Counted from the first letter of the stretch, positions 21,431-36,546 are shown. The stretch is 64,000 nt of DNA from an uncultured Alphaproteobacteria bacterium (GCA_963736275.1 CAVTOP010000017.1:7551-71550); one strand, 5' to 3'. Numbers and translations: made by a program. The notes: generated from the letters alone by a model not told the origin.

Positions 21431-21446
21431 TTGGACCGAGGTCCAA
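21431..21446. promoter_or_regulatory. TTGGAC-N4-GTCCAA operator-like palindrome, site 1
   Basis: gtcga-TTGGAC-cgag-GTCCAA, 126 bp upstream of the DUF1254 operon. Confidence 0.7.
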
Positions 21447-23075: not shown

Positions 23076-23581
23076 CAAGACAACTGCCAGGTGGCGGTGT
23101 CGCTGTCGCTTGCCAATCGCTACACGAGCCTGCCGGTGGCCTACCGTCTGTATCTGCCGGAAGACTGGTCGCAGGACAGCAACCGGCGGCGCAAGACGGG
23201 CGTGCCTGAGGATGTCCGCTTCAAGACCAAGCCCGAGATCGCGCTGGAGCAGATCGCGGCCGCCTGCAAGGCCGGCCTTCCTCTCGGCGTGGTGCTGATG
23301 GACGCGGGCTATGGCTGCAACACCGACCTGCGCACCGGAGTCAGTGCGCTCGGATTGCGCTATGTGGCTGGCATCCTGCCGAACACCTCTGTGTGGACAT
23401 CGGGCACGGGGCCGTTGCCGCCCAGAAAATGGTCGGGCCGGGGGCGTCCACCGAAGCTCATCCGCCGGGACGACAAGCATCGACCGGTCTCGGTCAAGCA
23501 ATTGGCTCTCGGCTTGCCAAAGCGCGCTTGGCGCACGATCCAGTGGCGCGAGGGGACGGCTGAGTGGCTGTCCTCGCGCTT
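23076..23581 (+). mobile_element. IS701-family transposase internal fragment
   Basis: NCQVAVSLSLA...LPVAYRLYLPEDW...FKTKPEIALEQI...VLMDAGYG...WREGT..WLSSR. Both termini are missing. Confidence 0.87.
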
Positions 23582-23658
23582 AGAGCGTCGTTTCACGAAC
23601 ATCAGGCATTGGCGGACATTGCTGCCGGGCAATGTCCGCTTTGCTGCATACGTTCCCG

Positions 23659-24600
23659 TCAAAACGGGTTGACGTAGTTCACGATCGCGATCTGCCGCAG
23701 GATCACTTTGCGGATGATATGGCTCGGCTTGATGTGGTCGGTGTAGATCGCCGCGGCGCCGGCGGTGCCGGCCGGCAGGCTGGCGGCGAGCTTGGGGTCG
23801 TCGAGCTTGACGCGAACGACAAATGGCGCCGCCGTGACTTGCCTCGGCGTCACGGCCGTACCCGAAGCGAGAACCTGGCCTGTCGACGTCGCCTGCAAGA
23901 CGGCGTCGACCTTGCCGTTGAAGACCTGGCCGGGGAATAGCTTGAACGTCACCTCAACCTCCTGGCCGGGCCGGATGTAGCGGGTATAGATCTGCGGGAT
24001 CTCGACCCCGACGACCGTCTCGGACGTGTCGATGAAGGCCATCACGGGCGAGAGCGGCAGGCTCGCAACGCGCGCGCCCTTCATAAGTCCGACATTGGTG
24101 ACGTAACCGTCGGCTGGAGCACGCACGACGGTCTGGTCGAGGTTGTATTTTGCGCCAAGAAGCTGTCCCTTGAGCTTGTCGACATCGGCCTGGCGCTGCT
24201 CGACATCAAAGGCGCGGCCGGCGTCGCTGAGTTGCAATTGCGTCATCTGGGAGAGCCGCAATTCCTCGAACTTGACTTGCGCGCCGATGGCATCGACCTG
24301 CGCCTGGTAAGGGATTGGATCGATCTTGAACAACACGTCGCCCGCCTTGAGCGGCTTGTTGGGCTCGACCGGGACCTCCGTCACCTCCCCCGCCACGTTG
24401 GGAACGATCTGCACCGAATTGCGCACCACCAGCGCCACACCCTGCGGAGCGCCCCACCCCATCGGAATAAAGAGCCCAAACATCAGCAACAGAAGAACAA
24501 TGAGCGGCGAGCACTTCCAGAACAGGTTGAAGGGGACGATCTTGGTCTTCACCAGGATAAAGAGGATGACGAGATAGACGTTCAGGATGGCGACAATCAT
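23659..24600 (-). CDS. HlyD/EmrA-like membrane fusion protein
   Basis: VPNVAGEVTEV, GDVLFKIDP and VRAPADGYVTN. ATGA overlap with DUF3302. Confidence 0.9.
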   Translation of the reverse strand: MIVAILNVYLVILFILVKTKIVPFNLFWKCSPLIVLLLLMFGLFIPMGWGAPQGVALVVRNSVQIVPNVAGEVTEVPVEPNKPLKAGDVLFKIDPIPYQAQVDAIGAQVKFEELRLSQMTQLQLSDAGRAFDVEQRQADVDKLKGQLLGAKYNLDQTVVRAPADGYVTNVGLMKGARVASLPLSPVMAFIDTSETVVGVEIPQIYTRYIRPGQEVEVTFKLFPGQVFNGKVDAVLQATSTGQVLASGTAVTPRQVTAAPFVVRVKLDDPKLAASLPAGTAGAAAIYTDHIKPSHIIRKVILRQIAIVNYVNPF

Positions 24601-24833
24601 CGTGCCGCCTCCCCCTTGCGCGCCGGAATGTCGACATAGGCCCAGATCAGGGCCACCGGCCACAGCGCAAACCCACAGATCAGCGTCACCCAGCCTGCGA
24701 CGGTGACGGCCTGCGCCCACGGATGGCCGCGGCTTTTGGCGATGTGTCCAGGCAGCGAACCGGCGATGAAGAATATCGCGATCCCGCTTGCCACGAGAAT
24801 GAGAAGGACGATCCAGGCGAAGATATCGATCAT
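24597..24833 (-). CDS. DUF3302 family membrane protein
   Basis: LPGHIAKSRGHPWAQAVTVAGWVTL..GFALWPVALIWAY. Confidence 0.88.
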   Translation of the reverse strand: MIDIFAWIVLLILVASGIAIFFIAGSLPGHIAKSRGHPWAQAVTVAGWVTLICGFALWPVALIWAYVDIPARKGEAAR

Positions 24834-24955
24834 TGTTGTGCTCTGTTATCTCAGCGCCAGATCGTTTCCATGGCTCGTGACGTTCTCCCTTCTTTACAAC
24901 GCCCGTGAAGCGGCGCCCTCGCCGTCAGGGTCCGCTGAAGAAGAGCTCGCGCCTG

Positions 24956-25894
24956 TTATTTCTCGGTGTCGACCACCTTCTTCCAGGTGTGATCGGGGCT
25001 GAACGACGTCATGCGCGAGGCTGTTCGCGCCGTGCGGTCGCCGAGATCCTTTTGATAGATGTCGCCGTCATTGTTGATGATGAAGGTCATGATGCCGGAG
25101 TTGCCGTATTCCGCCGGATAGGCGACAAGCCCGAAACCGCCGATCATGTTGCCGTTGACGACATAGTCCACGGCGCCGCCGGGCGCGGTCGGGCCCTGGC
25201 GTGTCAGGAGCTTGAAGCGATAGCCGTTGAAAGGCTCGCCGGCGCCCGGGCGATAGCCGCGTTGCGTCGCCGCCGCGACCGCATCACCGAGCGGGCTTGG
25301 CTTTTCGTTTCCGCTCGTCGGCCAATAGAGCCCGTCCTTCTTGCCGGGCGAGCTGACGATCCGTTGCGCATAGACCGCCTGGCCGCTCTTGTCCTTGTTC
25401 ATGTCCGCAAATTCGTTCTGCGCGTCCCAGTAGGCGAGCATGGCTTTCAGGGTCGCGAGCTCGTTGCGGCCGATGCGGCGCGCCAGGATTTCCTCACGGC
25501 CGGCAACGGTATCGAAGGCCCATTGGCCGTCCTTTTGCGCCATCGGAATCGGGAACGGCCAGTTGTCGGGGCCCATCACCAGCGTGGCAGGCTTGCCGGG
25601 CTCGGAGACAATGCGATGCCCGGCGTCATAGGCCGCCAGGAATTCCTTTTTTATGTTCTCGTCCTCCACCGGATCGCCGGATGACACGATTTCCTGCGAT
25701 CCGGGGCCGAGGATCGTAAGCACCGACCTGCGGTCGCCGCTGCGTGCCGCGTTGATGAGCGCGTTAACGGCCTCCTGCGGCGTGCTGAAACGCTGCTGCG
25801 CCTGCGCCAGCGAGGACAGCGCGAGGATCAGCGTCGCCGCGCCGACCAGGATGGTGATCTTGCTCAAGAGACGAACGTGCTGTGATTTGATCAT
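24956..25894 (-). CDS. DUF2950 family exported protein
   Basis: FSTPQEAV, WPFPIP, EILARRIGRNE, DGLYWP, PFNGYRFKLL and PAEYGNSGIMTFI. Confidence 0.9.
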   Translation of the reverse strand: MIKSQHVRLLSKITILVGAATLILALSSLAQAQQRFSTPQEAVNALINAARSGDRRSVLTILGPGSQEIVSSGDPVEDENIKKEFLAAYDAGHRIVSEPGKPATLVMGPDNWPFPIPMAQKDGQWAFDTVAGREEILARRIGRNELATLKAMLAYWDAQNEFADMNKDKSGQAVYAQRIVSSPGKKDGLYWPTSGNEKPSPLGDAVAAATQRGYRPGAGEPFNGYRFKLLTRQGPTAPGGAVDYVVNGNMIGGFGLVAYPAEYGNSGIMTFIINNDGDIYQKDLGDRTARTASRMTSFSPDHTWKKVVDTEK

Positions 25895-25907
25895 GGCCGT
25901 TCACCTG

Positions 25908-27494
25908 TCAATGCGGTTGCGGAGCAGCGGACGGAATCCGCGCCCCCGTGGCGAGCCACTGGTCGTAGGTTTGGAATTGCAGCCCGAGCTTGTCGTAGAA
26001 GACGCGCAGGTAGCCGTCGTGACCGCGGATGACGGCATCGGGCGCAACGACCTGCACCTCCTGCGCCATCACGCCGACATAGGCCTTGTCGCTGCCGTTG
26101 TAGCTGAAGCGATAGTAGCCGAGTCCGTTGTCGAGATGGCCGAGCAAGGTGACGTCATGCTTGAGCGCGATGTCCGAGCGACGTCCGCCGCCCCCACCGC
26201 CACGGCCACCACCGCCGCCACCGCCGCGGCCGCCACCGCCACCGCCCATGCGCGCGCCACCACCGCCGCCGCCACGCGCGCCCATGCTTGCATGACCGCG
26301 TGATGCCGAGGCCATCGCGCTGCGGCCGCCACCGCCGCTGCCGGCGAAGGCATTGTGGCCGCCACCGCCAGGACGGGATGCACCTTTTTGTCCGCCGCCA
26401 GCCGGACGCGTTGCAGCTTTTTGACCGCCACCGCCGCCACCGGGCCGATTGCCGGCACCCGGACGGTCGCCGCCGCCGGGACGTTGCACGCCGCCACCAC
26501 CCGCACCGGGACGATTGCCGGCACCTGGGCGGTCGCCGGCGCCGCCCGGCCGCAACGCGGCCTGGCCGTTGTGACCGCGGAAGTCCGTGCGGTTACCTGC
26601 ACCGCCGCGGATGTTGTTGCCCTTGTTCATTCTGTCGGCGACGCCTTTGTTGTTGTAACGGACGCCATGCCGGTGATCGACGTTATGATTCCAGTTGCCA
26701 CCGCCGCCGCCTGGCCGATTGATGTTGATGTTATTGTTGTTCCAGTTGATGTTGGCGTTACCGCCCCAATAACCTCCGCCGCCGGCCCAGCGCCCGATCG
26801 CATAGCCCGCGCCGAATGCCAGACCCGCGCCCAAAACTGCGCCGCCATACGGCCAGTAGCTGGCGCCCCAGTAGTAAGGCGGATACGCCGGGTAACTCCA
26901 CGCGCCATAAACCACTGCCGGATCGTAGTAAGGCACGTACATGGTTTGCGGATCGCTCGGCTCGATCACGATCACCTGCTTGCTGCCTTCACTTTTCTTA
27001 GTGACTTTCTGCTGCTTTGTGGTCTGCAGCTTGTTGTTCGCGTCGGCTTTTGCGCGCAGCCGCTGAACGCCATCCATCACATCGGTCTGCTGCGCGAGCA
27101 TGGCGTCGCCGAGCTTTTGGGTCCAGTCGAGCTTGTCGCTCATCATGTCGAGCACTGACGGGGTCGCGACGAGCGAGGTCACGCTTTCATCCCACCCTTG
27201 TTTCTCGGCGGCAGCCTTCAGCGCATCGTCCTTGAGACCCTTGTTTTCCTTCGCCCATCGGCTCGCCTGGACGACCTCGAGTGGATAGGTTGCTGCCATC
27301 AGCACCTGGGACAGCAGCGTGTCCGGATAAAGCGCGACCGGCGAGAGGAGCGCATCGATTTCTCCGGGCTGAGCAGAAGTTATCCGTGCTGGAGCGCTCG
27401 CCGGTGCGGGACCCGGCTGGGTCTGCGCGCTTGCCACAGGGGCAACGGCAACAAACAGGATGAATGCCAGTGATTGCGCGAGGAATTTCGACAT
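25908..27494 (-). CDS. DUF3300 protein with Gly/Arg-rich region and C-terminal Peptidase S74 (intramolecular chaperone) domain
   Basis: PVALYPDTLLSQVLMAATYPLEV, WDESV and YVPYYDPAVVYG (DUF3300). RPGGG repeats. RSDIALKHD...YRFSY...GVMAQEV...V.Y. Confidence 0.88.
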   Translation of the reverse strand: MSKFLAQSLAFILFVAVAPVASAQTQPGPAPASAPARITSAQPGEIDALLSPVALYPDTLLSQVLMAATYPLEVVQASRWAKENKGLKDDALKAAAEKQGWDESVTSLVATPSVLDMMSDKLDWTQKLGDAMLAQQTDVMDGVQRLRAKADANNKLQTTKQQKVTKKSEGSKQVIVIEPSDPQTMYVPYYDPAVVYGAWSYPAYPPYYWGASYWPYGGAVLGAGLAFGAGYAIGRWAGGGGYWGGNANINWNNNNININRPGGGGGNWNHNVDHRHGVRYNNKGVADRMNKGNNIRGGAGNRTDFRGHNGQAALRPGGAGDRPGAGNRPGAGGGGVQRPGGGDRPGAGNRPGGGGGGQKAATRPAGGGQKGASRPGGGGHNAFAGSGGGGRSAMASASRGHASMGARGGGGGGARMGGGGGGRGGGGGGGRGGGGGGRRSDIALKHDVTLLGHLDNGLGYYRFSYNGSDKAYVGVMAQEVQVVAPDAVIRGHDGYLRVFYDKLGLQFQTYDQWLATGARIPSAAPQPH

Positions 27495-27556
27495 GGTCAC
27501 TCCCTCGGTTCGCCCATCGTCGAGCGAGCTCAATGTAATCTTAGTCTGCTCGCGGC

Positions 27557-27576
27557 GCCTTGACCTAGGTCAAGGC
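27557..27576 (-). promoter_or_regulatory. FNR/FixK-type box TTGA-N6-TCAA, class II position
   Basis: Perfect 20 bp palindrome gccttgacctaggtcaaggc. A -10-like TACATT at 27537-27532 puts the centre at -41.5 for the DUF3300 operon. Confidence 0.68.
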
Positions 27577-27602: not shown

Positions 27603-27618
27603 TTGGACCGAAGTCCAA
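27603..27618. promoter_or_regulatory. TTGGAC-N4-GTCCAA palindrome, site 2
   Basis: atcgag-TTGGAC-cgaa-GTCCAA, 109 bp upstream of DUF3300. Confidence 0.7.
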
Positions 27619-27785: not shown

Positions 27786-28791
27786 CTAAGGAGACGGAAA
27801 GATCTGCTTCCAGTCGGCCTTCATGTCGACGACGGTCCAGTTGCGTTTGCTGGCCTCGTCGAGCGCCTTGTCGAGCTTGCCGATGTGCGATTTCCGGTCA
27901 TAGGCGTATTCACGCTCGACGTCGGTGTGATGGACGATGCCCATAAAACGGGCGCCCGTGCCACGCGGCCGTCCACTGCAGCATCTGCAGGTCGCCGTCC
28001 GAATTGCCGAAAGCAAAAATTGGATGACCCCCGATGAAGCGATTGATGCCCGACCGGCTTGCCCGGACCGTCATCGACAAACTCGACCTTCGGCAGCTTG
28101 AGCAGCGAAGCGCGTCCGTCGGGCTTGATCTCGAATTTTGTGACACCGGAAGAGCCGACGACCTGCTCCGGCGGAATGCCATAAACCTTCTCGGTCCACG
28201 GGCGCATGAACTCGATGCCGCCGCCGGACACGATGAAGGTCTTGAAGCCATTGGCACGAAGGTATCCCAGTAGCTCGAGCATCGGCTGGTAGATGAGTCT
28301 CGATATAAGGCCGCTTGAAGCGCGGATGGCGCGCGGTTGTCGTCCACTCGCAGCACGATTTTTGAGAAATGATCGACCGTCATGCCGGTGTGGGTCGCCG
28401 CTATGATCTCAAGCAGACCTTTTTCGCCGCTCGCCGCCAGGGCTTTGATGTCGTGGTCCAGCACGGCCTTGAACGGTTGCTTCGTTTTCCATTCCGGATG
28501 CTGCGGCGCCATCGCCTTGAGGCGGTCGAAAGCAAAGGCGACCTGGAAATAGACCGGCTGCTCGCATCACAGCGTGCCGTCATTATCGAACGTCGCGATG
28601 CGCTCCTCGGGCGGCACGAAGTCCGCAGAACCCTGCGTCGTCACGCGGGCGACGAAATCCGTGATGGTTTTCTTCGCCGCGCCGTCGTTCCAGGAGGGCA
28701 ACGGGTCGGACGTTTGCGCAAAGGCGCCGCCAGCGAGGGCAACCGCAAAGACTGCCGCAAAAATCGTGCGGCGACTGACCGGCAAAGTCAT
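27786..28791 (-). CDS. Exported HAD-family hydrolase (reading frame broken by an in-frame TGA and several indels)
   Basis: Signal peptide, DPLPSWNDG, IATFDNDGTL*xEQP, FIVSGGGIEFMR, FAFGNSDGD and WTVVDMKADWK, spread over four ORFs. Confidence 0.8.
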
Positions 28792-29127
28792 CGCAAGCGG
28801 GTCTTTGGCGGGGTTGCGGTCGAGGCAGAGGACTCCGAATTCTTTACGGGCTCGATCACTGCGCCTGAAATGATCGAGCACGAAGACGCGGATGGCAGAC
28901 GACAGATTGCTCGTTGTGCGGCTGTGATCGATCGTCGCCACCAGCGTCGAGATCGCCACGTGCTTGTCGTCGGCAATCTCGCGCAGCGCGTCCCAGAACT
29001 GATCTTCAAGCGAAATGCTCGACTTGTGCCCGTTGCGTATGACCGAACGCTTGATCACCGACGAGTTCTTGCGGCCTTGCGGCGGGTGAACGCGACCGGC
29101 GGTTTCAAAGGCCACGGCGTGATCCAT
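28788..29127 (-). CDS. Ribbon-helix-helix (RHH_4-like) protein, +1 frameshift near 28840
   Basis: KRSVIRNGHKSSISLEDQFWDALREIA...NLSSAIRVFVL. Removing one base from GAATTC at 28837-42 makes the stop overlap the HAD ATG (ATGA). Confidence 0.82.
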
Positions 29128-32433: not shown

Positions 32434-32509
32434 GAGCGCCTCCGTTGCTGCCGCGTTTGAAGTGGGACGTCCCTCCTCGCTCACCCTGTGTAGAATTATT
32501 CGATCTGTT

Positions 32510-33518
32510 TCAAGATTCCGCGCGTGTCCGCACGACACACCGAAAGCCGACATGACTGGTTGATGTGTCGACCGGTTGCGCGTGGCGCGCGGCCGGACGG
32601 TAGCGGCGGCAATAGTTCGGCGCGCAGAGATGCGAGCCGCCCTTTAAAACTTTGCGCGGAATCCTGATGTTCGGCTGGCAGGAATTGTAACTCGCGCTCT
32701 CCGGACCGCCGCGTGGATTTTCCGGAATGCAGCACGCTTTCGGCGCGTCGGCCTGATGCTTGGCCGAGAACCAGTCGCTGGTCCATTCCCAGACATTGCC
32801 GATCATGTCGTGAACGCCATAGCCGTTCGGCGGGAACGCCGTCACCGGCGACGTGCGCCTGAACCCGGGCTTGCCGCTGGTGCGGAAAGTCGCCGTGCCA
32901 TGTGTTCGCCATCGCACGGTTGTTTGGCATGAACTCATCGCCCCATGCGAATTCCGTGTCCTCGAGACCACCGCGCGCCGCGAATTCCCACTCGGCTTCG
33001 GTCGGCAGATCCTTGCCTGCCCAGCGCGCGTACAGAAACGCATCCGAATAGGCGATGTGCACGACCGGATGCTCGTCGAGGCCCTTGATGTTGCTGTCGG
33101 GGCCGTAAGGATGTTGCCAGTTCGCGCCTTTGAGAAACGTCCACCACTGGCTCCAGTCGCGCAGATCGACCGGATGCTTCGGCGGCGTGAACACCAGCGA
33201 GCCCGCGAACAGCATGATCGGGCAGCGCGCCGGGATAATCCTTCGGATCGGGCGGAATTTCCGCGAACGTCACATGTCCGGTCGCCTTCGTACAAATTCC
33301 CGGAACTGCCGGTTGGTGACAGGCGTGCGGTCGATCCAGAAATCGCTGACAGTGACGCGGTGGACCGGTGCTTCCTCCGGATAGTGCTTGTCCGAGCCCA
33401 TGCGGAACGTACCGCCCGGAATCCGGATCATGTCGGTGGTATTGACGTCCTGCGTCTCAGCCAAATTGCCCGCAACCCGAAAGCGCGGCTTGGCGTCCGT
33501 CCACGCGTGCTCGCTCAT
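32510..33518 (-). CDS. Formylglycine-generating enzyme (SUMF1/EgtB-like), three apparent frameshifts
   Basis: FRMGSDKHYPEEAPVH, LPTEAEWEFAARGGL, DMIGNVWEWT and KGGSHLCAPNYCRRYRPAAR...SHVGFRC, split over ORFs. Confidence 0.9.
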
Positions 33519-33553: not shown

Positions 33554-33569
33554 TTGGACCGTGGTCCAA
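33554..33569. promoter_or_regulatory. TTGGAC-N4-GTCCAA palindrome, site 4
   Basis: atcgag-TTGGAC-cgtg-GTCCAA, 36 bp upstream of the FGE gene. Confidence 0.7.
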
Positions 33570-33708: not shown

Positions 33709-33724
33709 TTGGACCGTGGTCCAA
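33709..33724. promoter_or_regulatory. TTGGAC-N4-GTCCAA palindrome, site 5
   Basis: gtcga-TTGGAC-cgtg-GTCCAA in the divergent FGE/kinase intergenic region. Confidence 0.7.
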
Positions 33725-33814: not shown

Positions 33815-35878
33815 ATGGATCAAATTGCGTCTGACATTTCAGTGCGATCACTTCTCAAGCGCAGCGCACGTTTCGGCGGCACTAACACAATTCGCAAGGT
33901 CTTTATCGTTGCGATCGCGTACTACCTCGGCGCTGAAATTGCCTTTCTGATCGGCACGCTGTCGGACAGGATCTTTGCGCCATTCTGGCCGCCGAACATT
34001 GTTCTGTTTTGCGCGCTCCTGATCACGCCACCACGGCAGTGGTGGATTTACATCGCGGCCACCCTCCCCGCCCATACGATCGCCGAGATCGGCGTCGGCA
34101 TGCCGATGCCGCAATTGGTCGTGGCCTTCGTGACGAACTGTCTGGTTGCAATCGCCAATGCTTTTGCTGTGCAACGCCTGATGGTCGGGCCTCCCTGGTT
34201 TGGCACCATCGGCAAGACAATTATCTACGTTCTGATCACCGCATTTCTGAGCCCGGCCTTTTGCGCGCTCGGCGGCGCCTTCGTCCAGGTTCTCGGCAGC
34301 GGGTCTATGGACGATTACGGACTCTATTGGGCGCGCTGGTACGCATCCAATGCGCTCGGCAGCCTGACGCTCGGGCCCATCGCCATGATCTGCATGGAAC
34401 GCACAACGCGGCCGACTCTCGCGCCGACCGGACGCGCCGTGGAGGCCGCCATCATTGCGGCGTTGTTGATCGCGGCCTGCATCATTGCATTTGAAGACTT
34501 GCCGTCGATTGCGAGCGGCTATCTGCCGCTGCTTTTGTATCTCCCTCTGCCGATCATCGTCTGGGCTGCGGTGCGCTTCGGCGCCAAGGGTTCAAGTGGG
34601 GCAGTATTCGTGATCAGCGTCGCCCTGATATGGCGCACGCTCAACGGCCCAAGCCTGTTCGACATCGGCTCGCCCGAAGCAAACGTGTTTGGCATGCAGC
34701 TTTTTCTGATCGGCCTGTCGCCACCGATCCTGTTGCTTGGATCCGCTATCGAGGAAACGCGGCGCGCGGAACGAACGACGCGCGAGAGCGAGGAGCGGAT
34801 ATCATTCGCGGCAGCAGCCTCGAACGTGGGACTTTGGCAGTACGAATTTGCGACGGGCGTGTTCTGGGCGACGGATTACTGCCGGACACTGTTCGGCCTG
34901 TCTCCAGGCGAGCCCCCGAATCTTGATACGCTGGTGAGCCGGATTCATCCAAACGACTCGCCGACAGCGAGCGCGGCACTGGGAGCAGCCATATCTCGCG
35001 CGACACCACTGGACGTCGAGTTTCGCGTGCAGGACGGCGAGGAGATTCGGTGGATCTCGGTGCGAGCACGGCCGGTCCGCGGCGACGACGGTAAGCCGGC
35101 GGCGATGTCGGGCGCATTCGGCGATGTGACATCCCGCAAGTTGGCCGAAGCCGAAGCCGACGTGCAGCGCCAGGAAATCGCGCACCTGATGCGGGTGTCG
35201 ATGCTCGGCGAACTCTCCGGCGGACTGGCGCATGAGCTGACGCAGCCGTTAACCGCGATTCTTTCCAACGCGCAGGCCGGAAAGATGCTGCTCGCAAAGG
35301 GCAACAAAGCTCTGTCAGAAATCGGCAACATACTTGATGACATAATCGCGGAAGACGAGCGCGCCGGAGAAGTGATTTACCGGCTCCGCGGCATGCTGAA
35401 AAAGGGCGACGTCAGACACGAACCGATCGATATGAACGAACTCATTGCCTCGACCTTGCGGCTCCTGCACAGCGAGCTGATCGATCGCCGGATGTCCGTG
35501 AGTTTCGATAATGCCGCCAATCTGCCGGCAACGCATGGCGACCCCGTGCAATTGCAGCAAACATTGCTCAATCTTTTGGTGAACGCGATGGACGCGACGG
35601 AAAATGTCCCGCCAGCCCGACGCACCATTTCGATCAGCACCACAACGACCGACGATGGCGGGGTCGAGGTGCACATTTATGATCGTGGTAGCGGATTGCC
35701 TCCATCGCGGGAGCAGGAGGTTTTTCAGCCGTTTTTCACGACAAAGAAGCGAGGTCTCGGCCTCGGCCTGTCGATCTGCACGTCGATCGTAAAGCTGCAT
35801 GGCGGGACGCTTTCGCTTCAAAATAATGTGAGAGAAGGCGCGACCGCGATTTTTCGGCTTCCACCGCCGCTGGATTGA
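33815..35878 (+). CDS. MASE1-PAS sensor histidine kinase
   Basis: Multi-TM MASE1 (FWPPNIVL, SNALGSL), a PAS domain, H-box LAHELTQPL, N-box NLLVNAMDA, G1 DRGSG and G2 GLGLGLS. Confidence 0.94.
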   Translation: MDQIASDISVRSLLKRSARFGGTNTIRKVFIVAIAYYLGAEIAFLIGTLSDRIFAPFWPPNIVLFCALLITPPRQWWIYIAATLPAHTIAEIGVGMPMPQLVVAFVTNCLVAIANAFAVQRLMVGPPWFGTIGKTIIYVLITAFLSPAFCALGGAFVQVLGSGSMDDYGLYWARWYASNALGSLTLGPIAMICMERTTRPTLAPTGRAVEAAIIAALLIAACIIAFEDLPSIASGYLPLLLYLPLPIIVWAAVRFGAKGSSGAVFVISVALIWRTLNGPSLFDIGSPEANVFGMQLFLIGLSPPILLLGSAIEETRRAERTTRESEERISFAAAASNVGLWQYEFATGVFWATDYCRTLFGLSPGEPPNLDTLVSRIHPNDSPTASAALGAAISRATPLDVEFRVQDGEEIRWISVRARPVRGDDGKPAAMSGAFGDVTSRKLAEAEADVQRQEIAHLMRVSMLGELSGGLAHELTQPLTAILSNAQAGKMLLAKGNKALSEIGNILDDIIAEDERAGEVIYRLRGMLKKGDVRHEPIDMNELIASTLRLLHSELIDRRMSVSFDNAANLPATHGDPVQLQQTLLNLLVNAMDATENVPPARRTISISTTTTDDGGVEVHIYDRGSGLPPSREQEVFQPFFTTKKRGLGLGLSICTSIVKLHGGTLSLQNNVREGATAIFRLPPPLD

Positions 35879-35907
35879 GGTAACCTTTGCCGCCGTGAGG
35901 TGTGTGA

Positions 35908-36546
35908 GTGATGGGCGACGCGGGCTTCACTACCTATCTGGTCGACGACGATCCGGCCGTGCTTCGGTCGATTACGCGGCTTTTAAAAGCGGGCGGGTTC
36001 AAGACCAAATCCTTCTCGTCACCGCAGAAATTTCTTTCCGTTCATGATCCATCCGTTCCCGGCTGCGCGATTATCGACCTCGTGATGTCGGAGCTCGATG
36101 GTCTGCGCCTGCAGGAGGCCCTGGCCCGATCGGGCTCCCAACGGCCCATCATTTTTTTGACCGGGCGCGGTGACGTCTCCACCAGCGTCAGGGCGATGAA
36201 AGCCGGCGCCGTCGATTTTCTGACGAAACCTGTCAAGCGGGACGCACTCTTTTCGGCGGTCGTGCAGGCGGCTGAGCTCGATGCCGCGTCGCGACAAAAA
36301 CGGCAGGAAAGCAAATCGATCGACGAGAGGTTTGCCGCCCTTACCCGCCGCGAGCGCGAAGTCCTGGAGCATGTGATCGCCGGGCGGCTTAACAAGCAGA
36401 TCGCTGCAACCCTGGGTACTGTAGAAAAAACGATCAAGGTGCACCGCGGCCGCATGATGGCCAAGCTGGGGGTACGGAGCGTGGCCGAGCTGGTTCGCCT
36501 TGCGGACCGGGCCGGAATCGCGCCGGCGGGCAGTATCCCGCAGTAG
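35908..36546 (+). CDS. FixJ/NodW/StyR-like response regulator (REC-LuxR HTH)
   Basis: LVDDD, IIDLVM, DFLTKP and LTRREREVL...LNKQIA..LG..EKTIKVHRGRMMAKL. Confidence 0.94.
   Translation: MMGDAGFTTYLVDDDPAVLRSITRLLKAGGFKTKSFSSPQKFLSVHDPSVPGCAIIDLVMSELDGLRLQEALARSGSQRPIIFLTGRGDVSTSVRAMKAGAVDFLTKPVKRDALFSAVVQAAELDAASRQKRQESKSIDERFAALTRREREVLEHVIAGRLNKQIAATLGTVEKTIKVHRGRMMAKLGVRSVAELVRLADRAGIAPAGSIPQ

What the first reader, a model, noticed from the sequence alone, without database searches (positions are those of the whole stretch)
23659..27494. DUF3300 protein ends in a phage tail-fibre-type self-cleaving chaperone (S74), in an operon with DUF2950, DUF3302 and HlyD
Seen: signal peptide, then DUF3300 and a WGASYW/GAGYAIG segment, then ~150 aa of Asn-rich and Gly/Arg low complexity (RPGGG repeats, RGGGGG), then RSDIALKHD...YRFSY...GVMAQEV (Ser codon at 26177-26175). 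Known: S74 intramolecular chaperones use a Ser-Lys dyad in an S-D-x-x-x-K motif, drive trimerisation of phage tailspikes and fibres, and then autocleave; both residues are present here. No phage genes are nearby. Inference: a cellular exported trimeric or fibrous protein matured by a domesticated phage chaperone, with a periplasmic partner (DUF2950) and an export or adaptor module (DUF3302 plus HlyD). I know of no functional description of this four-gene unit.
Basis: partly seen in the sequence, partly recalled or inferred. Interest (0 to 1): 0.75.

Follow-up and report, generated by a model that had tools for sequence, protein, structure and literature searches.

The report
DUF3300 protein with self-cleaving phage-type cap
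A secreted soil-bacterium envelope protein of unknown function ends in a small phage-derived domain that probably joins three chains and then cuts itself off. The same add-on sits on many unrelated exported proteins in this bacterial family, while the proposed four-gene unit does not hold up.

Summary
The 528-aa protein (27494-25908, minus strand) has a signal peptide, DUF3300 (E 7e-82), a 178-aa Gly/Arg-rich tract, and an 89-aa Peptidase_S74 domain scoring above Pfam's cut-off. Ser440 is encoded at 26177-26175 and Lys445 lies five residues later.

The domain's predicted fold matches viral chaperone (ICA) domains. Its nearest phage relatives are equally short S74 ends of alphaproteobacterial podophage structural proteins.

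Three results are new:
- DUF3300 orthologues without S74 mostly stop at ...GGGRR. That is where the S74 forms read ...GGGRR|SD, and MyRF is cut just before its catalytic Ser.
- The unit "Gly/Arg tract + RR + short S74" also caps lectins, RTX, OMP, caspase and adaptor proteins. In full form I found it only in this family.
- An FNR/FixK-type box lies upstream here and at 12 of about 31 related loci.

The four-gene unit is not supported. DUF2950 is the conserved partner. DUF3302-HlyD is a separate YiaW/YiaV-type pair, unlinked in every relative checked.

Cleavage, trimerisation and function remain inferred. I rate it a new variant of a known kind, of moderate interest.

The parts
27603..27618 (.). 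Palindrome TTGGACCGAAGTCCAA, 109 nt upstream of the start codon. It is one of four copies in the window and a candidate operator of the local two-component system.
   Evidence: 4 matches against 0.08 expected. A MASE1 kinase and a FixJ/NarL-type regulator lie at 33815-36546.
27560..27573 (.). FNR/FixK-type box TTGACCTAGGTCAA, 66 nt upstream of ATG 27494.
   Evidence: the only match in 64 kb (0.2 expected); the same type of box at a similar distance at 12 of about 31 related DUF3300 loci, including the genome's own paralogue.
25908..27494 (-). Gene for the 528-aa DUF3300 / Gly-Arg tract / S74 protein, stop codon included.
27426..27494 (-). Sec signal peptide, residues 1-23, with the cleavage motif ASA|Q.
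   Evidence: (19-residue Kyte-Doolittle mean 2.06) and direct reading of the sequence.
26715..27365 (-). DUF3300 domain, residues 44-260. The model shows a helical bundle followed by beta structure and has no solved structural relative.
   Evidence: E 7e-82; pLDDT 88, pTM 0.89; no PDB match.
26178..26711 (-). Gly/Arg/Asn-rich low-complexity tract, residues 262-439, ending ...RGGGGGGGRGGGGGGRR.
   Evidence: 42% Gly, 12% Arg. G10-G12 and R13-R14 are conserved in 48 homologues.
26175..26177 (-). Codon of the predicted nucleophile Ser440. The predicted scissile bond is Arg439|Ser440.
   Evidence: Ser440 is invariant in 48/48 sequences. MyRF is cut between P586 and S587 (PMC8326128).
26160..26162 (-). 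Codon of the predicted general base Lys445 (Ser+5).
   Evidence: The S-x4-K spacing is the same as in endoNF S911/K916 and MyRF S587/K592.
25911..26177 (-). Short-form S74/ICA domain, residues 440-528, 9.87 kDa.
24956..25894 (-). DUF2950 gene (312 aa, signal peptide), starting 13 bp after the DUF3300 stop codon. It is the conserved partner.
   Evidence: E 4e-110; it follows DUF3300 in 15 of 19 complete S74-type copies and 13 of 19 S74-less loci. PMC4653623.
24597..24833 (-). DUF3302 gene (78 aa, YiaW-like). A neighbour, not part of the unit.
23659..24600 (-). HlyD/RND-type periplasmic adaptor gene (313 aa, YiaV-like), overlapping the DUF3302 stop as ATGA. A neighbour, not part of the unit.
   Evidence: (TIGR01730 98 bits).
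23091..23672 (+). 5'-truncated DDE_5 transposase fragment, convergent with the 3' end of the HlyD gene and overlapping it. It marks a rearrangement boundary.
   Evidence: it matches profile positions 114-270 of 272.

Best explanation
The gene encodes a Sec-exported envelope protein. It has a DUF3300 domain, then a basic Gly/Arg-rich tail, then a short-form intramolecular-chaperone (S74/ICA) domain as a C-terminal cap.

Proposed course of events:
1. The protein is exported and the signal peptide is removed.
3. In the assembled cap, Ser440 (activated by Lys445) attacks the Arg439-Ser440 bond.
4. The 89-aa, 9.9-kDa cap is released. What remains is a 42-kDa protein of pI about 10 whose tail ends in ...GGGGGGRR-COOH.

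That end is the same one that S74-less orthologues encode directly. So the cap is an optional, self-removing assembly or maturation aid for the Gly/Arg tail, not part of the working protein.

The gene is co-transcribed with its exported partner DUF2950 from a promoter carrying an FNR/FixK-type box, which implies low-oxygen control. A second palindrome is shared with a nearby MASE1/FixJ-type two-component system.

The DUF3302-HlyD pair downstream is an independent YiaW/YiaV-type cassette placed there by rearrangement.

Shown here: domain identities, dyad conservation, fold likeness to viral ICA domains, distribution, synteny and the promoter motifs. Inferred: export, trimerisation, cleavage, the exact cut site, regulation and any envelope role.
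For: S74 membership:
- Pfam scores above the cut-off in both genomic copies.
- S15, D16, K20 and G49-V50-x-A52-Q53 of the alignment are invariant in 48 sequences. The motif is present in all full-length entries among the 120 best homologues.
- The AF2 model (pLDDT 82) matches viral ICA-domain proteins: E 7e-6, TM 0.64, rmsd 1.3 A over 72 columns.
- It is 40-43% identical to the S74 ends of Brucella and Rhizobium podophage structural proteins, E 1e-8. Those ends are equally short, 66-71 aa.

Selection on the cap: it is 75-94% identical among homologues whose full length is 57-84% identical.

Cleavage site logic:
- MyRF is cut between P586 and S587, directly before its catalytic Ser.
- Eight of 13 S74-less DUF3300 proteins end in a Gly-rich run followed by RR, RRR or HR. 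One of them, ending GGGGRRR, sits inside the S74-bearing clade.

Cellular precedent: Bdellovibrio MAT proteins carry signal peptides, come with or without S74, and self-cleave at the S74 Ser.

Partner: DUF2950 lies 13 bp downstream and is conserved (PMC4653623).

Regulation:
- The box at 27560-27573 is unique in the window and recurs at 12 related loci.
- PMC4653623 reports induction of both DUFs in symbiosis RNA-seq.

Envelope role: an E. coli yacH deletion changes protamine survival.
Against: - No experiment or multimer model supports trimerisation or cleavage.
- Foldseek found no solved ICA structure. The PDB profile search gave only E of about 1 to MyRF and a phage fibre.
- The domain lacks the long C-terminal coiled-coil helix that drives MyRF trimerisation.
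- The preceding sequence is low-complexity, not a beta-helix. There is no obvious substrate for a folding chaperone.
- S74-less orthologues show that the tail can exist without the cap.
- The promoter scan found no sigma-70-like site.
Confidence: 0.55

Rival explanations
1. The S74-like domain is kept on the mature protein as a non-cleaving oligomerisation or envelope-binding module. The conserved Ser, Asp and Lys would then be structural.
For: - The short form lacks the coiled-coil helix of characterised ICA domains.
- It has its own conserved extension, LGxxFQTYxxW.
- No solved ICA structure was retrieved.
Against: - Ser and Lys are strictly invariant at the catalytic spacing in every homologue examined.
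- S74-less orthologues stop exactly at the predicted cut.
- Every S74 domain tested experimentally in the papers read here self-cleaves.
Confidence: 0.2
2. One reading: DUF3300-S74, DUF2950, DUF3302 and HlyD form one functional four-gene export or adaptor unit.
For: - All four genes lie on the same strand.
- No terminator-like site was found in the 122-bp gap.
- One metagenomic adaptor protein, P0152, itself ends in the Gly/Arg-S74 module.
Against: - 0 of 36 related DUF3300 loci have DUF3302 or HlyD nearby.
- Orthologous DUF3302-HlyD pairs lie elsewhere in genomes that hold both units. G151, G226 and G188 are examples.
- E. coli yiaW-yiaV is unlinked to yacH.
- The genome's own second copy has no such neighbours.
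- A transposase remnant sits at the boundary.
Confidence: 0.05
3. The protein is membrane-tethered, with the glycine-zipper segment (GAVLGAGLAFGAGYAIG) as a transmembrane helix. The Gly/Arg tail and S74 domain would then lie in the cytoplasm, as in a MYRF-like arrangement.
For: - A conserved hydrophobic segment follows DUF3300 in all family members.
- The downstream tail is strongly basic, which fits the positive-inside rule.
Against: - The segment's hydropathy is below the usual transmembrane threshold (19-residue mean under 1.5).
- AF2 models it as a strand inside the domain.
- In E. coli YacH the segment is followed by an acidic Asp/His run.
- Other carriers of the module, such as the lectins and small signal-peptide proteins, have no such segment.
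Confidence: 0.08
4. The fusion is an artefact: a chance motif, an assembly or frame error, or a decaying prophage fibre remnant.
For: This assembly carries several apparent frameshifts, including one in the paralogue's poly-Gly tract.
Against: - The window copy is one intact frame.
- The architecture recurs in more than 100 homologues from many contigs, and in about 20 loci of other genomes in the 121-genome family sample.
- No phage genes lie nearby.
Confidence: 0.02

Closest known systems
Intramolecular chaperone auto-processing (ICA, Peptidase S74) domains of phage tailspikes and fibres (endoNF of K1F, T5 pb1) and of eukaryotic MYRF
   Same: - C-terminal position.
- S-D-x3-K dyad at the same spacing, and the G-x-[IM]-A-Q-E-V core motif.
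- Predicted fold like viral ICA domains.
- A Pfam hit above the cut-off.
   Different: - Only 89 aa, with no long trimerising coiled-coil helix.
- Preceded by a Gly/Arg low-complexity tract rather than a triple beta-helix, spiral or coiled coil.
- Sits on a Sec-exported cellular protein.
- Carries a family-specific C-terminal extension (LGxxFQTYxxW).
- Cleavage has not been tested.
Short S74 ends of T7/phiKMV-like podophage structural proteins of Alphaproteobacteria (Brucella phage Pr ORF23, Rhizobium phage RHph_Y1_10 EVB56_081)
   Same: - The closest sequence relatives found in phages: 40-43% identity, E 1e-8.
- The same short form, 66-71 aa from Ser to the end.
   Different: - The phage versions end right after the ...vdY..l strand.
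- They are preceded by ordinary sequence (FTK|SD, LPF|SD), not by GGGRR.
- They lie inside virion gene modules.
Bdellovibrio MAT (mosaic adhesive trimeric) fibre proteins (PMC10769870)
   Same: - Cellular proteins with signal peptides.
- The family has S74 and non-S74 members.
- S74 self-cleavage was shown experimentally.
   Different: - MATs share a beta-rich N-domain and beta-helical fibres with adhesive tips.
- Here the N-domain is the largely helical DUF3300, and the pre-cleavage sequence is poly-Gly/Arg.
DUF3300-DUF2950 secreted pair (E. coli YacH for DUF3300; rhizobial 'plant interaction determinant' Pfams, PMC4653623)
   Same: - The same two families, in the same gene order.
- Signal peptides on both proteins.
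- Function unknown.
   Different: - YacH and the DUF3300 proteins sampled outside this family have no S74 cap.
- YacH has Gln/Arg-rich repeats instead of poly-Gly.
E. coli YiaW-YiaV (and YibI-YibH): DUF3302 small membrane protein plus a membrane-fusion protein
   Same: The window's DUF3302 and HlyD genes have the same order and tight coupling (ATGA overlap).
   Different: This pair has no link to DUF3300. Its adjacency here is specific to this genome.

Membership tests
Peptidase S74 / ICA domain | Match to the Pfam PF13884 profile above its gathering score | tested here: met
   - 25.1 bits on the whole protein and 29.4 bits on the last 91 aa, against a cut-off of 22.
- The paralogue scores 37.9 bits.
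- 147 of 150 related cluster representatives also match.
Peptidase S74 / ICA domain | Catalytic Ser-Lys dyad with Ser-x4-Lys spacing (endoNF S911/K916, MyRF S587/K592) | tested here: met
   - Ser440 and Lys445.
- Invariant in 48/48 aligned sequences, and present in all full-length entries among the 120 best homologues.
Peptidase S74 / ICA domain | ICA fold | tested here: inconclusive
   - AF2 monomer model with pLDDT 82.
- It matches predicted viral ICA-domain proteins (E 7e-6, TM 0.64, rmsd 1.3 A).
- It matches no solved PDB chain.
- Sequence-profile hits to MyRF (7dc3) and a phage fibre (6f45) reach only E of about 1.
Peptidase S74 / ICA domain | [quoted passage not shown] | tested here: not met
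   - Only 89 aa from Ser to the end.
- The model shows a six-residue terminal helix.
- The closest phage relatives are also short.
Peptidase S74 / ICA domain | Lies directly after a trimeric fibre element (triple beta-helix, beta-spiral or coiled coil) that it helps to fold | tested here: not met
   The preceding 178 aa are 42% Gly and 12% Arg low-complexity sequence. pLDDT is below 50 for the poly-Gly residues in the model.
Peptidase S74 / ICA domain | Trimer-dependent autocleavage before the catalytic Ser | not testable with these tools
   This needs expression of wild type against S440A/K445A, or a multimer model. The indirect support is that S74-less orthologues end at ...GGGRR.
DUF3300 (PF11737) | Profile match, a signal peptide, and a DUF2950 gene directly downstream | tested here: met
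   E 7e-82. DUF2950 lies 13 bp downstream, at E 4e-110. The pairing is conserved.
Bdellovibrio MAT fibre family | Conserved beta-rich domain of about 130 aa after the signal peptide, and a beta-helical fibre before S74 | tested here: not met
   The N-domain model is helical over residues 7-116 of the modelled segment. No beta-helix precedes S74. No sequence comparison with MAT proteins was run.
YiaW/YiaV-type pair | A DUF3302 gene immediately upstream of a membrane-fusion (HlyD/RND adaptor) gene | tested here: met
   - DUF3302 at E 1.6e-27. The adaptor matches HlyD_D23 and TIGR01730 above their cut-offs.
- The two genes overlap as ATGA.
- The same arrangement occurs in E. coli and in five family genomes, with a sixth degraded.
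FNR/FixK-type regulon | A TTGAT-N4-ATCAA-like palindrome upstream of the gene | tested here: met
   - TTGACCTAGGTCAA at 27560-27573 is unique in the window.
- It recurs at 12 related loci at a similar distance.
- Binding and oxygen control are not testable here.

The most novel reading that the evidence does not exclude
'Gly/Arg tract + Arg-Arg + short S74 + Trp-helix' is one portable, self-removing C-terminal maturation module. It appears to have arisen once, from a podophage structural protein, within a single alphaproteobacterial family (probably Xanthobacteraceae). It then spread onto dozens of unrelated exported proteins: DUF3300, ricin-type lectins, RTX-repeat proteins, an OMP beta-barrel, a caspase-domain protein, a membrane-fusion protein and many small secreted proteins.

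On this reading its job is to align three Gly-rich or Pro-periodic tails, possibly as a polyglycine-II or polyproline-II-type trimeric stalk, and then leave. The exposed ...GGGRR-COOH end would be the working element in the envelope.
Probability: 0.3. Interest if true: 0.7.

Novelty: new variant of a known kind. Interest (0 to 1): 0.5.

Why it matters
S74/ICA domains are textbook folding aids for phage fibres. They have two known escapes into cells: MYRF in eukaryotes and the MAT fibres of Bdellovibrio. This would be a third, different use, on exported proteins whose pre-cleavage sequence is poly-Gly/Arg or proline-periodic repeats instead of a beta-helix.

- Orthologues that stop at the predicted cut site make the cleavage hypothesis cheap to test.
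- It offers a first handle on the DUF3300-DUF2950 pair. That pair is widespread, has no solved structural relative (a confident model finds no PDB match) and no known function. It was flagged as a plant-interaction determinant in rhizobia.
- The conserved FNR/FixK-type box offers a physiological condition, low oxygen, under which to look for a phenotype.
- The short self-removing cap could also serve as a protein-engineering tag.

If cleavage fails, the finding reduces to an automatically annotated domain combination.

Tried and rejected
- **Foldseek of the C-terminal model against the PDB:** no meaningful hit. Solved ICA chains are intertwined trimers, so a monomer model may not retrieve them. 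The viral predicted-structure library did give hits.
- **PDB sequence searches:**
  - The S74 profile reached only E of about 1, to MyRF and a phage fibre.
  - DUF3300 gave no hit at all.
  - DUF2950 gave only weak hits to adenylate kinase, best E 0.0098, which I take as spurious.
- **Foldseek of the DUF3300 model against the PDB:** nothing.
- **Transmembrane helix at the glycine-zipper segment:** rejected on hydropathy and on the AF2 model.
- **Collagen-like Gly-X-Y periodicity in the tract:** not present on reading the sequence.
- **Four-gene operon:** rejected on synteny.
- **NCBIfam:** no model matches DUF3300, DUF2950 or DUF3302.
- **Literature search for 'yacH':** swamped by an author's surname. 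Only the CpxR paper was useful.
- **Promoter and terminator scan:** uninformative in this GC-rich DNA.
- **Both structure jobs were spent on monomers.** No trimer or DUF3300-DUF2950 complex could be modelled.

Full report
**1. The observation**

Four genes lie on the minus strand of 23659-27533:
- a 528-aa protein, from ATG 27494 (GAGGGAG six bases upstream) to the stop at 25908;
- a 312-aa protein at 24956-25894;
- a 78-aa protein at 24597-24833;
- a 313-aa protein at 23659-24600.

Pfam assigns them as follows:

| Protein | Family | Score |
|---|---|---|
| 528 aa, residues 44-260 | DUF3300 | E 7e-82 |
| 528 aa, residues 440-488 | Peptidase_S74 | 25.1 bits whole protein, 29.4 bits on the last 91 aa (cut-off 22) |
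| 312 aa | DUF2950 | E 4e-110 |
| 78 aa | DUF3302 | E 1.6e-27 |
| 313 aa | HlyD-type adaptor domains | E 1e-12 (HlyD_D23) |

Lys is five residues later, at 26162-26160. The fragment from Ser to the end is 89 aa and 9.87 kDa. The tract between DUF3300 and Ser is 178 aa, 42% Gly and 12% Arg.

**2. Is the C-terminal domain a real S74/ICA domain?**

Sequence. Apart from two truncated entries, the 120 best homologues all keep RRSD[IVM]x[LFV]KHD...GV[MI]AQ[ED]V. In a 48-sequence alignment of the tail, Ser, Asp, Lys and the G-V-x-A-Q core are invariant. The tail is 75-94% identical in proteins that are 57-84% identical overall. The cap is therefore the most constrained part of the protein.

Structure. 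An AF2 model of the last 103 residues has pLDDT 82.
- It finds no solved structure.
- It does match predicted viral "intramolecular chaperone auto-processing domain" proteins: E 7e-6, TM 0.64, rmsd 1.3 A over 72 columns, 42% identity.

Phage relatives. tblastn against 50,697 phage records finds S74-bearing structural proteins of Brucella, Rhizobium, Sinorhizobium and Roseobacter podophages at 40-43% identity, E down to 1e-8. In two of these the S74 part is also short, 66-71 aa from Ser to the stop.

The window's domain is thus a "short-form" S74. It lacks the long C-terminal helix whose triple coiled coil is the main driver of MyRF trimerisation (PMC8326128). It has a conserved extension of its own, LGxxFQTYxxW.

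My judgement is that membership of the S74 superfamily is well supported. Two features of the characterised members were tested and not met: the coiled coil, and a fibre element upstream.

**3. Evidence bearing on cleavage**

Mass spectrometry places the MyRF cut between P586 and S587, directly before the catalytic Ser. S587A and K592A abolish cleavage. Transferred to this protein, the cut falls at ...GGGGGGRR|SDIALK.

I then looked at DUF3300 proteins that lack S74, in this family and in other alphaproteobacterial families. Eight of 13 end in a Gly-rich run followed by RR, RRR or HR (...GGRGGGRGGGRR...GGGGRRR...GGGGRGGGGRGGRR). Several others end in KR or KKR.

A tree of the DUF3300 domains puts 16 of the 17 S74-bearing genes in one clade with 100/99 support. 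That clade also holds two S74-less genes, and one of them ends ...GGGGRRR. The simplest history is one gain, followed by losses that place the stop codon at the cleavage site.

This is indirect evidence. It is nonetheless what one expects if the mature product of the S74 forms equals the primary product of the S74-less forms.

**4. The module is not specific to DUF3300**

A search restricted to the tail found the same domain, at 75-80% identity, on two other kinds of protein:
- a signal-peptide protein with ricin-type lectin repeats and a Gly/His tract (P0145);
- the C-terminus of a membrane-fusion protein (P0152).

Scanning 121 genomes of the family for PF13884 gave 56 hits in 40 genomes. I read the non-DUF3300 ones. 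The same short S74, with the Trp-containing extension, follows:
- ricin-like domains with (PTLR)n or (VIRP)n repeats;
- an OMP-type beta-barrel;
- RTX-like GGxGxD repeats;
- a caspase-domain protein;
- an RGG/GGYSR-repeat protein;
- several small proteins with signal peptides.

That call also turned up ordinary phage-type structural proteins, and one classic long fibre chaperone, which probably belong to prophages.

An exhaustive profile search of 1.84 billion cluster representatives gave these counts:

| E-value threshold | Clusters |
|---|---|
| 1e-3 (includes generic S74) | 9519 |
| 1e-10 | 2013 |
| 1e-30 | 161 |

Of the top 150, 147 match S74 but only 14 carry DUF3300. Of 119 with enough upstream sequence, 75 have Arg-Arg directly before the Ser and 72 have at least 6 Gly in the 12 residues before that. 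The median Ser-to-end length is 89 aa.

Many of these representatives are short. They may be fragments or mis-framed calls in GGC-rich DNA, so the partner census is rough.

With the same profile, a sample of 150 other alphaproteobacterial families held only generic S74 matches of 27-61 bits that cover the core alone. The genome's own copies score 176-188 bits. In this sample the composite module is therefore specific to the family.

**5. The gene neighbourhood**

I fetched 36 related DUF3300 loci of up to about 12 kb and searched them with the window's proteins.
- DUF2950 follows DUF3300 in 15 of 19 complete S74-type copies, counting the window and its paralogue, and in 13 of 19 S74-less loci.
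- DUF3302 and HlyD were found in none.

Conversely, orthologous DUF3302-HlyD pairs (59-77% identical) occur in five other genomes of the family, with a sixth degraded. None has DUF2950 or S74 upstream. In three genomes that hold both units, they lie hundreds of kilobases to megabases apart. E. coli has the same pair as yiaW-yiaV, unlinked to its DUF3300 gene yacH.

In the window, 122 bp separate DUF2950 from DUF3302. A 5'-truncated DDE_5 transposase overlaps the end of the HlyD gene. The four-gene unit is an accident of this genome. The real unit is DUF3300(-S74) plus DUF2950, as already noted for rhizobia (PMC4653623).

**6. Distribution of the fusion**

In the family sample, 34 of 121 genomes have DUF3300. 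About 20 of roughly 31 full-length loci carry S74 within 1.5 kb downstream on the same strand. A second, shorter DUF3300 subtype never carries it.

None of the seven DUF3300 loci found in 150 other alphaproteobacterial families carries the cap. Six were tested by tblastn, and the profile search of the same genomes found no match at any of the seven. E. coli YacH has Gln/Arg-rich repeats and no cap.

JGI's automatic names already read "DUF3300/endosialidase-like protein". The architecture is therefore visible in databases. I found no paper that discusses it.

**7. The rest of the protein**

The DUF3300 region models confidently (pLDDT 88, pTM 0.89) as a helical bundle followed by beta structure. 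The beta part includes the glycine-zipper segment and the NINxN / WxHNxxHRxGVxY motifs. It has no structural neighbour in the PDB and no sequence neighbour there either. The hydrophobic segment is therefore unlikely to be a membrane helix.

Functional data on the family are thin. An E. coli yacH deletion survives protamine better than wild type, and yacH responds to CpxR. Both DUFs were reported as induced in symbiosis transcriptomes.

**8. Regulation (new here)**

The only TTGAY-N4-RTCAA site in the 64-kb window is TTGACCTAGGTCAA at 27560-27573, 66 nt upstream of the start codon. The expected count is 0.2.

The same type of box, often the perfect FNR/FixK consensus TTGATCTAGATCAA or TTGATCTCGATCAA, lies at a similar distance upstream of 12 of about 31 related DUF3300 loci. 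One of these is the genome's own paralogue.

Thirty bases further upstream lies TTGGACCGAAGTCCAA (27603-27618). It is one of four copies in the window, against 0.08 expected. Two of the others precede a MASE1-PAS histidine kinase (33815-35878) and a FixJ/NarL-type regulator (35908-36546).

Control by low oxygen is an inference from motif identity and conservation. It fits the symbiosis data.

**9. Most likely mechanism, and what remains open**

The proposed sequence is: export by Sec, association of three caps, cleavage at Arg439|Ser440 by the Ser440/Lys445 dyad, release of the 9.9-kDa cap, and a mature basic protein ending ...GGGRR that works with DUF2950 in the envelope under low oxygen.

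The open question is what the cap is for when there is no beta-helix to fold.
- The sequences before the cut in the various carriers are poly-Gly, or repeats with Pro at every fourth residue. Both favour extended polyglycine-II or polyproline-II conformations. A registering trimerisation cap could plausibly align such tails. This is speculation.
- A non-cleaving role, or a membrane-tethered topology, cannot be excluded without experiments.

No trimer model, complex model or transcript data could be obtained.

**10. Verdict**

The S74 cap on a cellular exported protein holds. The four-gene unit does not. A fibre is unproven.
- Novelty: a new variant of a known kind. This is an ICA/S74 domain used as a portable cap on Gly/Arg-tailed exported proteins in one bacterial family.
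- Interest is moderate. There is a cheap decisive experiment and a first handle on two widespread DUFs.

Noticed in passing
own genome G000 contig C5:440782-443289 (L007:6782-9289): A second DUF3300 + Gly-rich + S74 (37.9 bits) + DUF2950 locus. The DUF3300 part and the S74 part are in different frames, with the shift inside the GGC-rich poly-Gly tract (about L007:7990-8040). It could be a real pseudogene or an assembly indel. It has a perfect TTGATCTAGATCAA box upstream, and no DUF3302 or HlyD downstream.
   Followed up: partly
own genome G000 contig C5:571637-572285 (L008): A third DUF3300 copy, split over two frames with an in-frame TGA and no DUF2950 or S74. It is probably degraded.
   Followed up: no
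window 27560-27573 and related loci L007, L009-L011, L014, L017, L019, L021, L023, L033, L034: An FNR/FixK-type palindrome (TTGAT-N4-ATCAA class) is conserved roughly 65-130 nt upstream of DUF3300 start codons across genera. This suggests the DUF3300-DUF2950 pair belongs to a low-oxygen regulon.
   Followed up: partly
window 21431-21446, 27603-27618, 33554-33569, 33709-33724; genes 33815-35878 (+) and 35908-36546 (+): There are four copies of TTGGACCGNNGTCCAA, against 0.08 expected. One lies in the DUF3300 promoter. Two lie upstream of a MASE1-PAS histidine kinase and a REC-GerE (FixJ/NarL-type) regulator. The box was not found upstream of DUF3300 in relatives.
   Followed up: partly
window 23091-23672 (+): A 5'-truncated DDE_5 transposase (profile positions 114-270 of 272), convergent with the HlyD gene's 3' end and overlapping it by 14 nt.
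   Followed up: partly
window 32496-33295 (-) and 27821-29127 (-): The FGE-sulfatase (formylglycine-generating enzyme) gene next to the sulfatase is split over two overlapping frames. The region upstream of DUF3300 (RHH_4 ORF plus two overlapping ORFs with no Pfam match) also looks frame-broken. Several apparent frameshifts in one assembly point to indel errors or gene decay.
   Followed up: no
L009 (G165:C504:1-8140): A tandem duplication of the whole DUF3300-S74 + DUF2950 unit: two complete copies head to tail on one contig.
   Followed up: no
L057 (G222) and L064 (G212): Signal-peptide proteins with a ricin-like domain, followed by long perfect 4-residue repeats, (RPTL)n or (VIRP)n, that run straight into PSDIQLKHD... 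of the same short S74 domain. These are good candidates for rigid trimeric stalks.
   Followed up: no
L061 (G151), L063 (G269), L065 (G252), L060 (G177), L051/L052/L055: The same S74 module also caps an OMP-type beta-barrel, an RTX-repeat protein, a caspase-domain protein, an RGG/GGYSR-repeat protein and several secreted proteins of 150-180 aa. One of the small ones (L051) is encoded divergently, right next to a DUF3300-S74 gene.
   Followed up: partly
L023:1092-1556, L010:5610-6029, own genome C18:82710-83108: A protein of about 155 aa with two hydrophobic helices gives sub-threshold DUF3302 matches. Sub-threshold DUF3302 matches also lie within 2-9 kb of DUF3300 genes in four genomes (G203, G186, G188, G269; only G203's was checked by sequence). 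A homologue follows DUF2950 in L010 (G248). In the window's own genome the homologue is on another contig.
   Followed up: partly
window 26715-27365 (DUF3300 domain): A confident AF2 model (pTM 0.89) with no Foldseek match in the PDB at E below 1. The DUF3300 fold has no solved relative.
   Followed up: yes
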